A stretch of DNA of 64,000 nt, taken from contig NW_020846609.1 in assembly GCF_003704095.1 (NCBI RefSeq), forward strand, positions 1 through 64,000. Direction: 5' to 3'. Shown in pieces: positions 41,601-47,600 of this stretch. The position numbers are program-made. The DNA is from Pocillopora damicornis. Its lineage: Eukaryota. Every line of letters starts with the position of its first letter. Positions within the stretch are counted from its first letter, which is position 1.

Positions 41601-44600
41601 TTCATGATCGTAGCACTTATTCAGTTGACTCTTCACTATATAAATGGAAAAGAGGAAGATTTGAAAAATACCAGAACTTTCCAACACATGGAGGAGTGGC
41701 TTGTGATTCAATTGTGATCGCTAACGACACATATCTTGTCTTCGCCAACCAACGTAGCCCCCAGGGAAACCATGACGCGGAATCTACCGTATATAAGTGG
41801 TCAGGAGGTCACTTTCTAAAGTTTCAAACAATGAAAGCCCGCGGTTCTTTTAGTACCAAGTTCTTTCAAGTTGGTGACCATGTCTTTCTCGGATTCGCAA
41901 GTTCTCGCAGCACAAAATCACCTCTCTTTAAATGGGATGGCTCAAAATTTACCTTGTTTCAAGATATTCCAACTCGTTTCGCCATGGAGCTATGCCTGTT
42001 TGAAGTGAATGGTGACGTGTTCCTCGCTGTTGCCAATTATAACGAAGGCAAATCATTTGTGTACAAAGCTTCTGGCGCACAGTTCACTCACTACCAAGAT
42101 TTGGAAACACAGGGTGCTCGAGGAGTGCACGCCTTCGTTCATGAAGGCGAGAAATACCTTGTGTTTGCTAATTACTGGAAAAACAAAAAATACAACATCG
42201 ATAGCTTTGTCTATAAGTTTGTGTAAACTTTGCTGAGAAATCCTATTGACTTTACTGCATGGGTAAAACGACCCAACAAGCGTCATATCGTAAATTTGAC
42301 GATATAAAAAAATCCTTCGGATGAGCATGTTCTAACTACCCAATTTTTTTTCATCTGACTAGCTCTGAAACTTAAGATAACAGGATTAGATGATTGATTG
42401 ATTGAGTGATTGGTAAGTTACCATTCGACTGACTGACTGACTGACTGTTTTTCGCCTAGGTGCGCAATTGACAAAAGTCCTAGCCAGGCCAGTCAGTCTC
42501 TCGTAACTAGAGGTCTTAATGGCAAGTCCTAGGCTTCGGGGAAAGTATTTCTCAATTCTCGTGAAATGGAAAAGCGAAGCATAGATTATGCTAAGTAGTT
42601 AGATCTATTTATCGACAATTATTGGCTTATCAAGAAAGTGATACGACTGTAACGAAAGAGCCTTACTGACGTCGTTCGTTTAACTGTAGTCATTTTGTGA
42701 TGCCCTCAGAGGGTGAAAAGTTCAAAATTTAAAAATTAGCATGCCGTTTTTCCTTGTAACCTCACAAGAATGTCGTCAATGTTGAGTTAACAATTAGAGA
42801 TTGTTCCATTGAATTTCTAAAAAAACAATTTCCCAAATGTTTGGAATAGAACACATCCAGTTTCAATTTCTTAAATTATCTGAAGGGGAGATTACATTGC
42901 CCACATGATATCTCCATGATGTTTTAGGCGAACCTTCCACTCTTAGCCACAAGTAATAGTCCTCCGTATTAGCCAAAATCACAGAAACCCTTTTTTTAAA
43001 ATTAATACTTGGGGGATAATGTTACACAATAATTGGATTTCTGGTCATTTTCTCATTTTGCACATCCCCTTTCACTAAGAAGCGCGTCAAGTCTGTTTGG
43101 TATTAATCAGCTTTTAAAGAATTATTATGACAGATCGATCAACGCTGTTGAACCTATGGACGCAATCGCAAGGTAAAATGAAGACAATTGCGGTACTAAT
43201 TTTATTGAGGTATTTTAATTGTGGGTTTCAATCTTAAAAAAAGAAGGCTAAGACGCATTTTTCATTAACGATTTTACTTAAACGAGCGAGTCCCTCGACC
43301 ACTTTCTTGGACAGCATTACAAATGTATTATCTTGTTTTGGCTTTCCTTTTTCCCTGGGAAACTGGAAGAAACTACTCTGCGTCTGCAAATCAGGCTGAC
43401 CTTGATACTCAGCTTTGACTAATAAGCTGTTCGCGTATTTTTCTCGCGATTTGCTTGGTGACGTAAAGAGCTTACAAAAAAGGTTCTATGAAATGTTTGC
43501 TCTAAATCGTACAAAAAAATAAGAAATTAGAAAGAACTGAAGTCAAAATATACCCCACGTAGTGCAAGTTTGCTGACTTTTCAGAAATCATTGCAAATTT
43601 AAATTAAGGATTTTATGAACTTTCCTACGGTTTCTCTGTTATTTTCTTTCACTTCTTAGCTGTTCAATGTTCTAAACGCCAAACGATCGTCAGTAAGATG
43701 ATATGCAGTCACAATAGTAAAATGCCGTCAGGCGAATACCTTCAAGGTCTGGCTATTAATTTCTACCCCGAAGAAAGTTGAGCTGGTCCTACTTAGTATC
43801 ATAAGTTTCGAGAAGAAAAGTGTTAATGATACGACTTAAATAACGAAAGAGAGGCATCCTGCCTTTGATGACGTGAGACTACTCCATATTGGCGAATCCT
43901 TCACCAGCCTTCTAGTGCCGAGACCCCCTCTGCGAAGCCGGCCTTGGATGGATGTGTACAGCCAAGCATTTTCCTGCCGTCCTTAACCGTAAGAGCCGCT
44001 CCATTTCCAGCCATTTCCTCAGTGGTCTGAGAATCCACCTCGGACACGGGTTGTCCGAACTCGGTAACGTCCATCAAGACATGATCTTCGATGGTAAACT
44101 TTTCCACTTGAATATCCTGCTGGAAAGAATGAGGACTCGGAGTCAGAAATGTTGGAGCTTCCAGAGCTGCCTTAGGATTCATTCCACTGTCCAAAATGTT
44201 TGTTAAATACTGCGGAATAACAAATGATTGAGAGGGACCGGTGGAAGTCAGAACTAACACAGGCACCAAGGGGCCAGAGTGCAGCATAGAGGTGGCTTCT
44301 CTGTCCGGAAGACTCCCTGATTTCCACATGTCGGGAATTCCAAGATGCGGAAATTCTTTGACTTCTTTGTTAAAGCCGTCCTTCTCTTGAGACTCTTCGC
44401 CTTCAGTTTCCCGTCCTCTTTCTTCTATGATTTCCTCATCCTTATCGCTTTCTTCTCTCTCCTCCTTTTCCTTTTCAGTTTCTTCCCTTTCTTCCCCTCC
44501 CTGGCTGATCTTAGGAATTGCATTGATATCAGAATCTTCTTCTTCGTTGGGGTGAGGACGATGTAATCTAAGATGTGGTTTCTCAAACTCCTCGAGTTCT

Positions 44601-47600
44601 TCAGTTGGTGGAACGTTTGGCTCATTATGCATTGGCGACTTCAATTTATCATTGACCTCCATGGGTAGATCTGTTCTCTCTCTTTCATAATTTGGTTCAT
44701 TGGAATTGGAAGGTATCTCGTTGGTTCGGAAATTAGAATCAACATCTGGATATTCTTTTTCTTCAAGTTCATCTACAGGCTCCTCTTCCCGTCCAAACTG
44801 ATAACGTTTTTCTGACTTGTCTCCTTGCGATTGATGGAACAATTGAGATCTGACTTTATTGTACGTTTTGAAAACCACTAGTTTTTGTGGCTCTTCTCCC
44901 CAGTTCTTCTGGAGGTTTGAGAAACCTTTCCTCCTAGAGGCAAGTCGCTTTTTGTTCTTCGTTGCTGCAGAAATGTCTCGTCTGAGCCTTCTGCCAAATT
45001 CATCGACTTGCCGAGTTTCCTTTTTAAAGATAATCACAGGCTGGAATCCCGACGTTATTCTTCCACCATTATTGGTCTTCTTTACTTGCGTCTTCAATGC
45101 AATTCCAGAGCTGGGGAGACTTACTCCATGCACAAACAAGCCTGTTCCCCAAGCGTCACCATCGGTGCCATGCGAGAGGGAGCAAACGTTGCCAGCACTG
45201 TCCACTGCGACTACGCCAGACGAACCGCGCCGATGTTGTTCCATGTCCATCTCAACACTTGCCAGCAATTCTCGCATGACGTCGTTGACATCTTTCATCT
45301 TCTCAAATGAGGCGATTTTGTCCCATAGCTCCTCAGCAGAGTCCTTTGTTTTCCGATAAGAGTAATCGGCAGTTATTCCAAGATGATCTTTGAGCAGTTG
45401 TTTTCCATTAGGAACTTCTCGTGCGAAAAAGGTAACAAACGAACTAAGACGTGTTATGGAAGCTAGCCAGAACAGTTTTGTGGCGTTTGTAAGGTAAGAG
45501 TCGGTTGATTCTCCGATTCCTGCCAATTGCATTAAATTTAACTTTTCAACCAGCTCAGCGCCTCCCAATTCCGCACCTGTCGTTACCACGTGATGCTTTT
45601 GGTACAAGGTGCTTGTGGGCTCAGGTGACGTCACCTTATACTGAGTCATGTCTTCCATCGTAATGTAGCCTTCGTGACGTTGAACCGTCTCAACCATTTC
45701 TTCAGCCCAGGGACCACGGTAGAAGTATTCCTTTCCATATCTGGAGAGGCGTTTAAGAAATTTTCCCAACTTAAGTTGCCTGAATCGTTCGCCAGCTCTG
45801 TAGACTTTCTTTGTTTTGGGGTTAGTGAAAGTATTTTTTCCTATAAAGCAAGAAATGGCAGTCATTATAAACCGACTATAAAGGTTGTACTACAGGAGGG
45901 GGGCATTGGGGCCTATTAGAAACCGCAAAACCGTAGAAAAAATTATCCANNNNNNNNNNNNNNNNNNNNNNNNNNNNNNNNNNNNNNNNNNNNNNNNNNN
46001 NNNNNNNNNNNNNNNNNNNNNNNNNNNNNNNNNNNNNNNNNNNNNNNNNAATAGCCAAAACAGCAAAAATCGAAAATCCCAATGCCCCCCTCCTACAGGA
46101 CAGGACATCAATATAAGTTGTGATTGACCTTCTCTCTTTTTGTTCTTTTCTTTTCAAAGATAATTTACAAGACATCAGTTTACTTTAAACTTGTAAAGTT
46201 TTACAAAAAAGTCCTAGTTTTTAGATGCAGGTACAATTTGAAGCTGTGAGTATTTGGGCTCCCTACTTTGTCAGCCTCAATTCAACCGATGAAAAAATTC
46301 TTGCACATGAAGATACAGCCTGGATATGCACGTCCTGTTCCTTGCTCAAATGAATTACGAACAAAACTGTAAATAGCTTAAAACGTCTTACCAAGGTAAG
46401 GGTCCTCCTCTTTTTGGTATCTTATTTATGAAAGGTCACTTGACCGCTTAAGTACACCGTTCACTAAGGGAGGAACAACTAGATCCTCTCGCCTGTACAA
46501 ATCGCTTCAAACCAAACGCCATACCTTCCTTGGTGCGCAGGAGGCCTCTCTGGTTATAGTTTTTCCTCATCTCCTCTGCCAGGTCAGAAGGGAGTTTGAA
46601 TCCTCTGGTGGCAAAGTACAACGCCGGTTGCAACAGTTTAGACAGCGGAAATAAACCAAACTTCTCTGAGGCCGTAGAGACGCCTGCGACGAGACCTGGC
46701 ACTAGAACGGCGGCTCCGTTACCGAGCTCGGAATGATGTTCAGGAATCTGAGCAGGGTCTACGTAGTAAGGCTTGTTCCAGCCTGCATCTAGGTTGTAAG
46801 TGACCCCAGTGGAGCTGTCATAGTACAAAATGTTGGCTGCTCCGGCATAAGACACGTGTGATCCAGCTGCAAGAGTGATCTCTGTAGAAAATGAAACAAT
46901 ATTAAATTGTGGATGAAAACCTGAATCAGAATAAAGCTTGATTACCAACCGCTGTCCAGAAAATGGGCTCGCGCTAGCAGCCTGAAGAGACCGGCATGAT
47001 GGTTACGGGATGATTACGGAATAGCCACGGGTTTGCAGCTATACTCGTCAACGTGTTTACAGTGTGTGAGGAATCAAACCTATGAAAAGTACTGGAAATT
47101 TGATGTCGGTCACTGCTTTGGAATCTTTTCTTTCAACGATGAGACTTAAAAAATAATCAGCTGGTACATTTGGCTTCGAGAAAAATCCGATGATTGGAAA
47201 TGAAAGTTCATCTGTCCTTGCTCATGATCCTAATTAAACTTCAGTTTGATAAGGCAGGCTTTTGACAAATGAACATCGAATGCAAAATATCTGGTGTCCA
47301 CATATACAGCTGTCAAAAGGGATAATGCAAGGAACCATTTTAAACCTCTCAGAAGAGCAGTGAAATTCACTGACAAAGCTTCACATAACAGCAAACGAAA
47401 TTTAGCTTTTGGTGGGAACGAAACCGGGGAGTTGGCTGGTAGATGGAAAAATCAATAACAAAGAACGTTTATCTGTTCGTCACTTGACTGCGTCCGATTT
47501 GTGAGAACTTATGCTCTCCTGCTTCCAGCCATGCTCTGCACATGAAATCTGGTCCTTAATCCGGCAAAATCATCTTGAGTACCGTAATGCTCGAGATAAA

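What the first reader, a model, noticed from the sequence alone, without database searches (positions are those of the whole stretch)
44264..45019. ~250-aa granin/prohormone-like insert inside the GGT small subunit
Seen: a stop-free insert lies between SGFQPVIIFKK and PVLVLTSTGP, which are only a short beta-turn apart in canonical GGT (SSMSPTIVVKDGK..LVTGSPGG). It is first basic (RRLRR, KKR, RRK, KR) and then very Glu/Asp-rich. It contains a furin-type RLRR site and two F-G-R motifs flanked by basic residues: R-QVDEF-G-RR (45010-44987) and KR-YQF-G-R-EEE (44809-44789). Established: X-Gly-basic is the amidation signal, and acidic spacers are typical of cnidarian neuropeptide precursors; acidic tracts are also typical of Ca-binding skeletal-matrix proteins. 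Inference: a secreted enzyme fold that doubles as a peptide precursor, is activated by convertase excision, or carries a mineral-binding loop.
Basis: partly seen in the sequence, partly recalled or inferred. Interest (0 to 1): 0.72.

Follow-up and report, generated by a model that had tools for sequence, protein, structure and literature searches.

The report
Charged disordered loop in GGT-like protein
A secreted enzyme-like protein of the gamma-glutamyltranspeptidase family carries a real 252-residue, highly charged and probably floppy loop where its relatives have a three-residue turn, but nothing beyond chance suggests that the loop is a hormone precursor.

Summary
On the minus strand, one stop-free reading frame (45865-43901) encodes most of a gamma-glutamyltranspeptidase (GGT) family protein. 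In it, 252 residues (45019-44264) sit where three bacterial or archaeal GGTs and E. coli GGT have a 3-residue turn.

The insert looks translated. It has 0 in-frame stops, against a mean of 15.5 in shuffles, and 0 of 20,000 shuffles were stop-free. Its codon-position composition is coding-like, and no good splice pair bounds it.

It is basic first and acidic after, a split reached by only 4 of 20,000 shuffles. It has no hydrophobic stretch and falls on the disordered side of the charge-hydropathy plot. It matched no family, solved structure or Atlas cluster.

The prohormone reading is not supported:
- Dibasic sites are at chance, 7 against 7.2 expected.
- The repeated F-G-R is not significant once the choice of motif is allowed for (1539 of 20,000).
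- The published precursor criterion of three or more similar peptides fails.

The host protein is also atypical. It has Ser at the Thr nucleophile position and Gly-Pro in place of the oxyanion Gly-Gly.

Orthologues and transcripts could not be checked.

The parts
50816..51110 (-). Exon 1 of the GGT-like gene. It holds the ATG, a probable signal peptide and the start of the GGT domain.
   Evidence: The first ATG of the ORF is at 51110. The hydrophobic 12-mers at ORF residues 20-34 have a mean Kyte-Doolittle score of about 2.2. TIGR00066 positions 4-33 are matched. The donor CAG|GTAGGC lies after 50816.
46465..46920 (-). Exon 2, the large-subunit part of the GGT domain. Its 3' end is unresolved, with in-phase donor candidates after 46513, 46480 or 46465.
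   Evidence: PF01019 profile positions 38-140 are matched at E 1.3e-10. The acceptor TTCAG| lies before 46920. It aligns with 3 prokaryotic GGTs.
45950..46049 (.). A run of 100 N inside intron 2, left as it stands.
43901..45840 (-). Exon 3. It holds the rest of the large subunit, the whole small-subunit part, the insert and the stop codon.
   Evidence: The ORF spans 45865-43901. The acceptor TTTATAG| lies before 45840. PF01019 scores 101.4 bits.
45221..45223 (-). Codon of Ser215, at the position of the N-terminal Thr nucleophile and autoprocessing site of GGTs.
   Evidence: Residue 1 of the solved small-subunit chains equals L001 T369. T369 aligns with the first Ser of GSSGVV. GSSGVV lies at 45226-45209.
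45020..45052 (-). SGFQPVIIFKK, the strand before the insert. It follows the counterpart of the conserved PLSSMxP motif, which reads T-S-G-F-Q-P here.
   Evidence: The motif name comes from PMC8062742.
44795..45019 (-). Basic part of the insert (residues 283-357, net charge +12, pI 10.8). It holds all 7 dibasic sites and both F-G-R motifs (45010-44987 and 44809-44780).
44264..44794 (-). Acidic part of the insert (residues 358-534, pI 4.4). The densest stretch has 17 D+E in the 30 aa from residue 457.
   Evidence: There is weak internal repetition of a GAA/GAG-rich 30-mer.
44234..44263 (-). PVLVLTSTGP, the strand after the insert. G543-P544 (44239-44234) stands where GGTs have the oxyanion-hole Gly-Gly.
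   Evidence: phmmer alignments to E. coli and H. pylori GGT, MAFFT and BLASTP.
44210..45124 (-). Best in-frame GT..AG pair (915 nt) that would remove the insert. It would also remove the conserved flanking strands (residues 248-552). It is a candidate only and is judged unlikely.

Best explanation
The insert is a translated, lineage-specific, intrinsically disordered loop. It is a 252-residue polyampholyte, with about 75 basic residues followed by about 177 acidic, Glu-rich residues. It has expanded from the 3-residue tip of a beta-hairpin in the small-subunit half of a divergent GGT-family (Ntn-hydrolase) protein that enters the secretory pathway.

The two strands that carry it still align with GGTs, so the loop probably projects from the fold without breaking it (inferred). 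It is not a peptide-hormone precursor.

The most likely way it works is as a flexible electrostatic appendage. It could bind counter-charged partners or cations, or fold back on itself with the basic part against the acidic part. It is also exposed enough to be clipped by secretory-pathway proteases at its basic cluster. All of this paragraph is inference.

The host protein has Ser for the Thr nucleophile and Gly-Pro for the oxyanion Gly-Gly. It is therefore probably a slow, altered or non-catalytic GGT relative.

What is shown: the insert exists, where it lies, its open frame, its composition, and the two substitutions. What is inferred: translation, disorder, surface exposure and function.
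For: Position.

Coding character:
- There are 0 in-frame stops. No shuffle was stop-free (0 of 20,000 and 0 of 5,000), with mean stops of 15.5 and 10.9.
- G is 36% at codon position 1 and A is 48% at position 2, whereas intron 1 has a flat composition.
- No donor scoring at least 6 of 8 and no acceptor bound the insert itself.

Disorder-like composition:
- The fraction of charged residues is 0.42.
- Mean hydropathy is 0.327, against a boundary of 0.442.
- No 15-residue window has a Kyte-Doolittle score above 0.5.
- Both flanks fall on the folded side of the plot.

Other points:
- Charge segregation: 4 of 20,000 shuffles reach the observed value.
- The insert has no relative or domain: Pfam found 0 families at E up to 10, the Atlas gave no usable hit, and PDB gave nothing below E 0.58. 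There is no second copy in the window.
- Motifs are at chance.
- Ser215 and G543-P544.
- In PMC8062742 (passages and table rows read), Thr-to-Ser mutants of H. pylori and B. licheniformis GGT have impaired autoprocessing and lose 92% and 89% of activity. The same review calls the Gly-Gly 'invariably conserved'.
Against: - No transcript, orthologue or peptide evidence could be consulted. Translation and conservation of the insert therefore rest on the open frame alone.
- The only structure model (single sequence, mean pLDDT 35.6) was unusable for the core and the insert alike. It says nothing about disorder or exposure, and no fold search was run on it.
- A frame-preserving GT..AG pair (45124-44210) scores as well as the gene's own putative exon-1 donor and lies between its two putative acceptors.
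- GC3 of the insert (0.40) is lower than that of the flanks (0.47).
- The exact motif F-G-R occurring twice is rare on its own (56 of 20,000).
Confidence: 0.6

Rival explanations
1. The loop is a processing site. Furin or PC-type convertases cut at the basic cluster (RLRR, KKR, RRK, KR). The small-subunit half then becomes two chains held together by the fold, and the acidic tail is released or left dangling, as a maturation or sorting step.
For: - There are 7 dibasic sites and one R-x-R-R site, all within residues 292-354, in a probably exposed loop of a protein with a probable signal peptide.
- A nematocyst-specific subtilisin-like convertase (NSP6) and a nematocyst GGT (NSP7) are reported together in cnidarians (PMC6134521, passages read).
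Against: - The number of sites is what the composition gives by chance (7 against 7.2; 12176 of 20,000 shuffles reach it).
- Cutting here cannot create the free N-terminus at S215 that an Ntn hydrolase needs.
- There is no evidence that this gene is NSP7. NSP7 is described as having a transmembrane start and no signal peptide.
Confidence: 0.17
2. The acidic tract is a cation- or mineral-binding loop, so the protein would be a component of a calcifying matrix.
For: - The acidic part has pI 4.41, and the insert is 25% D+E, with 17 D+E in one 30-aa stretch.
- The protein is probably secreted.
Against: - The insert is Glu-rich (19%), not Asp-rich (6%), and is interleaved with Lys and Arg.
- The exon-3 product has pI 5.42. 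That is above the pI < 4.5 used for acidic coral skeletal proteins in preprint 10.64898/2026.03.24.713908 (passages read; values).
- Three literature searches gave no link. One pairing GGT with the skeletal matrix gave only a gene-transfer table. One pairing 'acidic SOMP' with 'glutamyl' found no paper. One on glutathione hydrolase, coral and skeletal listed 3 of 4 papers, and the one read names a glutathione hydrolase only among genes upregulated in coral oral tissue.
- My recollection that 'acidic SOMP' is a GGT was wrong.
- The supplementary protein lists of skeletal proteome papers could not be seen.
Confidence: 0.07
3. The insert, or most of it, is not in the mature protein because it is spliced out. 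The candidates are 45124-44210, or 44925-44254, which would remove 672 nt. Alternatively, the open frame is a young remnant without function.
For: The donor GGA|GTAAGT at 45124 paired with the acceptor TTCCGCAG| at 44210 preserves the frame. The pair scores 18, the best of 574 in-frame pairs.
Against: - That intron would also delete residues 248-282 and 535-552, which align with GGTs.
- The second pair has a weak donor (5 of 8).
- A 756-nt stretch with no stop against 11-15 expected argues for selection on the frame.
- The insert is purine-rich, unlike intron 1.
Confidence: 0.12
4. The loop is a precursor of amidated neuropeptides (peptides ending in Phe-amide from the two F-G-R sites), released from an enzyme scaffold.
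For: - Two F-G-R sites are present, one preceded by KR and followed by EEE, the other preceded by R-Q.
- G-R followed by acidic residues is the pattern of Antho-RFamide precursors (PMC7523074).
Against: - The criterion of at least three similar peptides is not met. The peptides before the 3 G-basic sites share at most one residue.
- One candidate peptide contains D and E.
- The motif counts are at chance once the choice of motif is allowed for (1539 of 20,000).
- No known precursor is embedded in an enzyme fold. This last point is recalled and was not searched.
Confidence: 0.03

Closest known systems
Bacterial-type gamma-glutamyltranspeptidase (E. coli GGT, PDB 2e0w/2dbu; MEROPS T03; Pfam PF01019)
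   Same: - Same domain: 101.4 bits on exon 3 and 41.1 bits on exon 2.
- Same order of elements, with the large-subunit part followed by the small-subunit part.
- The strands on either side of the insert, and the helix after the oxyanion strand, align.
   Different: - 252 residues stand in place of a 3-residue turn.
- Ser stands in place of the Thr nucleophile, and Gly-Pro in place of Gly-Gly.
- Identity to the three prokaryotic GGTs is only 25-27%.
- The TIGR00066 score is 89.7 against a cut-off of 357.85, for exon 3 alone.
Cnidarian nematocyst GGT (NSP7; Ggt marker of Nematostella cnidocytes)
   Same: It is a GGT-domain protein in an animal genome. A role in poly-gamma-glutamate handling is proposed for it (PMC5584322, PMC6134521; passages read).
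   Different: - NSP7 is described as a single GGT domain with a transmembrane start and no signal peptide.
- No insert is mentioned in the passages read.
- Whether the window's gene belongs to that clade could not be tested, and the source organism is not known.
Anthozoan 'gamma-glutamyltranspeptidase 1-like' candidate for horizontal gene transfer (Bhattacharya et al. 2016, PMC4878875, table row read)
   Same: In the PDB search, the window's protein scores higher against bacterial GGTs (35.8 bits, E 3.4e-08) than against human GGT1 (19 bits, E 0.004).
   Different: - No sequence of that candidate was available, so identity is untested.
- The window's gene has introns and animal neighbours.
Cnidarian neuropeptide preprohormones (e.g. 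Antho-RFamide precursor)
   Same: A probable signal peptide, G-R followed by acidic residues, and a possible N-terminal Gln.
   Different: There are no repeated peptide copies, the candidate peptides are dissimilar, and the sites lie inside an enzyme fold.
Granins
   Same: Acidic, with dibasic sites, in the secretory pathway.
   Different: - There is no granin domain hit and no Cys.
- The dibasic sites are clustered in a basic segment rather than spread through the acidic part.

Membership tests
GGT family (Pfam PF01019 / MEROPS T03) | Domain match above Pfam's gathering score | tested here: met
   Exon 3 scores 101.4 bits and exon 2 scores 41.1 bits, against a cut-off of 27. The exons were searched separately.
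GGT family (Pfam PF01019 / MEROPS T03) | Thr nucleophile at the autoprocessing site (T391 in E. coli) | tested here: not met
   Ser215 stands at the position of L001 T369, which is residue 1 of the solved small subunits. The review states that Thr is conserved there.
GGT family (Pfam PF01019 / MEROPS T03) | Oxyanion-hole Gly-Gly (G483/G484 in E. coli) | tested here: not met
   G543-P544 aligns with the Gly-Gly in E. coli, H. pylori and 3 prokaryotic GGTs.
GGT family (Pfam PF01019 / MEROPS T03) | PLSSMxP motif of the small subunit | tested here: inconclusive
   The window has T-S-G-F-Q-P. The final Pro is invariant in alignment A1, and Ser-Ser is Thr-Ser here.
GGT equivalog (NCBIfam TIGR00066) | Score above the curated cut-off | tested here: not met
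   89.7 bits against 357.85 for exon 3 alone. The joined protein was not searched, so the score is a lower bound.
Cnidarian neuropeptide preprohormone (criteria of PMC7523074) | At least three G-KR, G-RR or G-R sites | tested here: met
   There are 3 sites, at residues 291, 358 and 484. Chance gives 2.2, and 7779 of 20,000 shuffles reach 3.
Cnidarian neuropeptide preprohormone (criteria of PMC7523074) | At least three highly similar peptides before those sites | tested here: not met
   The contexts are VDEF, RYQF and IEER. Only two share a single Phe.
Cnidarian neuropeptide preprohormone (criteria of PMC7523074) | Signal peptide | tested here: inconclusive
   A hydrophobic stretch follows the first ATG of exon 1. 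No signal-peptide predictor was available.
Granin | Granin domain or motifs, disulphide loop | tested here: not met
   The insert matches 0 Pfam families at E up to 10, and it has no Cys.
Coral acidic skeletal proteins (CARP/SAARP) | More than 14.5% D+E with pI < 4.5, and Asp-rich tracts | tested here: not met
   The exon-3 product has 16.9% D+E but pI 5.42. D is 6% against E at 19% in the insert. The threshold is from preprint 10.64898/2026.03.24.713908.
Coral acidic skeletal proteins (CARP/SAARP) | Found in the skeleton by proteomics | not testable with these tools
   Supplementary protein lists are closed, and the source organism is unknown.
Nematocyst GGT (NSP7) | Membership of the single-copy cnidarian NSP7 clade, with a transmembrane start | not testable with these tools
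   No NSP7 sequence was available. The N-terminal hydrophobic stretch here is only about 13 residues long.

The most novel reading that the evidence does not exclude
An animal has kept a bacterial-type GGT fold that no longer works as a standard GGT (Ser for the Thr nucleophile, Pro in the oxyanion hole). It has turned this fold into a secreted scaffold for a 250-residue bipolar charged loop. The basic head and Glu-rich tail of the loop would bind polyions, such as the poly-gamma-glutamate and cations of stinging capsules, or calcium at a calcifying surface. A resident convertase might clip the basic cluster first.
Probability: 0.08. Interest if true: 0.6.

Novelty: new variant of a known kind. 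Interest (0 to 1): 0.3.

Why it matters
If the loop is translated and conserved, it would show how much disordered sequence a strand-turn-strand next to an Ntn-hydrolase active site can carry. Together with the Ser and Pro substitutions, it would mark a GGT relative that has probably left classical glutathione chemistry. That bears on the unsettled role of GGT-like proteins in cnidarian secretory cells.

As it stands, this is an ordinary kind of event, a lineage-specific charged insertion, in an unusual place. The more striking prohormone idea does not survive the statistics.

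Tried and rejected
- **Structure prediction.** A single-sequence AlphaFold2 run on the exon-3 product gave mean pLDDT 35.6 and pTM 0.22, with 605 of 654 residues below 50. It was unusable, so no fold search was run and the second job was not spent.
- **Scan of bacterial and archaeal genomes.** Residues 9-282 were used as the query. 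88 pattern matches were found, and none was confirmed. The second scan that was allowed was not used.
- **ESM Atlas.** The whole exon-3 product matched only GGT clusters (30 of 30 hits). The insert alone gave no usable hit.
- **Pre-insert piece searched alone.** Pfam found 0 families for residues 200-282. A PDB search of residues 189-282 returned 66 matches, of which the best 60 were shown, and none was a GGT. The nucleophile was therefore mapped through plasmid-borne GGTs instead.
- **'Acidic SOMP'.** I recalled that this coral skeletal protein is a GGT. The passages read say otherwise: there is no GGT mention, and a beta-sandwich fold is predicted.
- **Repeat or mobile-element origin.** Only a weak 30-nt and 9-nt repetition was found in the acidic tract. 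There is no second copy in the window.
- **Conserved substrate-binding Arg of the large subunit.** Only 1 of the 3 comparators has Arg in that column, so no claim is made.
- **Literature on inserts in the GGT small subunit.** One search found 0 papers. This is one query in an open-access library, not proof that nothing is in print.

Full report
**What is there**

On the minus strand lies a three-exon gene of the gamma-glutamyltranspeptidase (GGT, Pfam PF01019) family.

- Exon 1 (51110-50816) begins with ATG and a short hydrophobic stretch (MNRTTFLALVGLISVYG). This looks like a cleavable signal peptide. Exon 1 also matches the first positions of the GGT model.
- Exon 2 starts at 46920 and matches Pfam profile positions 38-140. 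Its donor is unresolved: three in-phase candidates lie after 46513, 46480 and 46465.
- Intron 2 holds a run of 100 N (45950-46049), which I left as it stands.
- Exon 3 starts at 45840 inside a 654-codon open frame (45865-43901). It carries the rest of the domain and the finding.

The exons were searched one by one.

The neighbouring genes are animal genes: an EPTP-repeat gene and Cep57 exons. Nothing suggests a human contig.

**Checking the observation**

All quoted strings are at the stated coordinates. The insert is ORF residues 283-534 (45019-44264).

Three independent comparisons show it is an insertion relative to the family.

- Pfam aligns residues 11-266 to profile positions 142-374, and residues 548-639 to positions 425-508. 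That leaves 281 residues for 50 profile positions.
- BLASTP of the piece before the insert against a Variovorax plasmid GGT (L001) ends opposite its residue 437. The piece after the insert starts opposite residue 441.
- A MAFFT alignment with three prokaryotic GGTs (Variovorax, Natrononativus, Cereibacter) puts all 252 residues opposite a two-residue Gly-Lys/Arg turn.

E. coli GGT has the same short turn (alignment printed).

**Is the insert coding?**

Several results point to a frame that has been kept open.

- The 756 nt have no stop in frame, against 4 and 23 in the other two sense frames.
- None of 20,000 mononucleotide shuffles (mean 15.5 stops) and none of 5,000 dinucleotide-preserving shuffles (mean 10.9 stops) was stop-free.
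- Codon-position composition is coding-like: G is 36% at position 1 and A is 48% at position 2. Intron 1 is flat across the three positions.
- Synonymous codon choice is broadly like that of the flanks, though GC3 is lower (0.40 against 0.47).

A consensus scan found no donor scoring at least 6 of 8 at the start of the insert. The acceptor-like site nearest its end lies at 44254, ten bases past the insert, and has no good in-phase donor.

The best frame-preserving GT..AG pair, out of 574, runs from 45124 to 44210. It would also delete residues 248-282 and 535-552, which align with GGTs. I therefore rate it unlikely, but only transcript data can exclude it.

There is no sign of a repeat or mobile-element origin. 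Only weak GAA/GAG-type repetition is present, and there is no second copy in the window.

**What the insert is like**

- K+R is 17% and D+E is 25% (E 19%, D 6%). There is no Cys.
- The first 75 residues have net charge +12 and pI 10.8. The remaining 177 have pI 4.4.
- This segregation is far beyond chance. A cumulative charge of +13 was reached by 4 of 20,000 shuffles.
- The fraction of charged residues is 0.42.
- The insert lies on the disordered side of the charge-hydropathy boundary, while both flanks lie on the folded side.
- No 15-residue window is hydrophobic.
- It matches no Pfam family at E up to 10, nothing in the PDB below E 0.58 and no Atlas cluster.

The single-sequence AlphaFold2 model was unusable everywhere (mean pLDDT 35.6). 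I draw nothing from it and ran no fold search on it.

**Testing the prohormone reading**

| Feature | Observed | Expected from shuffles | Shuffles reaching the observed value (of 20,000) |
|---|---|---|---|
| Dibasic sites | 7 | 7.2 | 12176 |
| G-basic sites | 3 | 2.2 | 7779 |
| R-x-K/R-R | 1 | 0.26 | 4712 |
| F-G-K/R | 2 | 0.08 | 56 |
| Any x-G-basic tripeptide occurring twice | 2 | 1.0 | 1539 |

The exact motif F-G-K/R twice is rare, but the motif was chosen after seeing it. The last row allows for that choice, and the result is not significant.

The criteria used to call cnidarian preprohormones come from PMC7523074 (abstract and passages read). They ask for:
- at least three G-basic sites;
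- at least three highly similar peptides before those sites;
- a signal peptide.

The first is met at chance level, the second fails, and the third is likely met. The same paper notes that established cnidarian neuropeptides are short and lack acidic residues. One of the two proposed peptides here contains Asp and Glu.

Granin features are also absent: no domain hit and no Cys.

**The host protein is itself unusual**

Solved small-subunit chains of several GGTs start at L001 residue 369. That Thr aligns with the first Ser of GSSGVV, which is Ser215. The oxyanion-hole Gly-Gly of E. coli and H. pylori GGT aligns with Gly543-Pro544.

A review (PMC8062742, passages and table rows read) states that:
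- the Thr and the Gly-Gly are invariably conserved;
- Thr-to-Ser mutants autoprocess poorly and lose about 90% of activity;
- some substitutions of the second Gly strongly reduce activity.

The window's protein is therefore probably a slow, altered or non-catalytic relative. The counterpart of the PLSSMxP motif reads T-S-G-F-Q-P. I could not assess other active-site residues reliably, because the comparators themselves vary.

The insert lies 68 residues after Ser215. Cutting it out could therefore not stand in for autoprocessing.

**How it most likely works**

My best reading, at about 0.6, is a translated, disordered, bipolar charged loop grown from a hairpin tip. It would act as an electrostatic appendage. 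It may incidentally be clipped at its basic cluster.

| Rival explanation | Confidence |
|---|---|
| Deliberate convertase processing | 0.17 |
| Removal by splicing, or a functionless young frame | 0.12 |
| Cation or mineral binding | 0.07 |
| Amidated-peptide precursor | 0.03 |

**Leads from the literature, none testable here**

- GGT is a nematocyst protein (NSP7) and a cnidocyte marker (PMC6134521, PMC5584322; passages read).
- A 'gamma-glutamyltranspeptidase 1-like' gene is listed among anthozoan gene-transfer candidates with an unclear donor (PMC4878875; table row read).

In the PDB search, the window's protein scores better against bacterial GGTs (35.8 bits) than against human GGT1 (19 bits). 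This fits either lead but proves neither.

**What stayed unchecked**

No eukaryotic sequence collection was available.
- As a result, orthologues, conservation of the insert and its motifs, clade membership and the source organism are all untested.
- Supplementary tables of the proteome papers were closed too, and they may list this protein.
- One literature search for inserts in the GGT small subunit found nothing. That is a single query in an open-access library.

**Verdict**

This is a new variant of a known kind, of modest interest.

Noticed in passing
window 45221-45223 and 44234-44239 (minus strand): The GGT-like protein has Ser where GGTs have the Thr nucleophile, and Gly-Pro where they have the oxyanion-hole Gly-Gly. 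This suggests an altered or lost catalytic mechanism.
   Followed up: yes
window 43901-51110 (minus strand): The gene scores higher against bacterial GGT structures (35.8 bits) than against human GGT1 (19 bits) in the PDB search. A paper lists an anthozoan GGT-like gene as a gene-transfer candidate. The gene nevertheless has introns and animal neighbours.
   Followed up: partly
window 44210-45124 (minus strand): A frame-preserving GT..AG pair of 915 nt has a fair donor (GGA|GTAAGT) and acceptor. It would remove the insert together with conserved core strands, so it could be a cryptic or alternative intron.
   Followed up: partly
window 41375-42226 (plus strand): A single ORF of 283 aa holds six EPTP (EAR) repeats (PF03736, E 6e-55). 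It converges on the 3' end of the GGT-like gene.
   Followed up: no
window 16110-19822 (minus strand): Three ORFs match Cep57 domains (the centrosome-localisation and microtubule-binding domains). They are exons of a Cep57-like gene.
   Followed up: no
window 58988-59947 and 60765-61592 (plus strand): Two long ORFs (319 and 275 aa), rich in Ser, Lys and Glu, have no Pfam match at E up to 0.01. They may be large exons of a disordered protein.
   Followed up: no
window 51635-51943 (plus strand): An ORF of 102 aa starts about 500 bases from exon 1 of the GGT-like gene on the opposite strand. It has no Pfam match at E up to 0.01. The two genes may share a divergent promoter region.
   Followed up: no
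window 24844-24943, 32017-32328, 45950-46049: Three runs of N (100, 312 and 100 bases). The third lies in intron 2 of the GGT-like gene. All were left as they stand.
   Followed up: no
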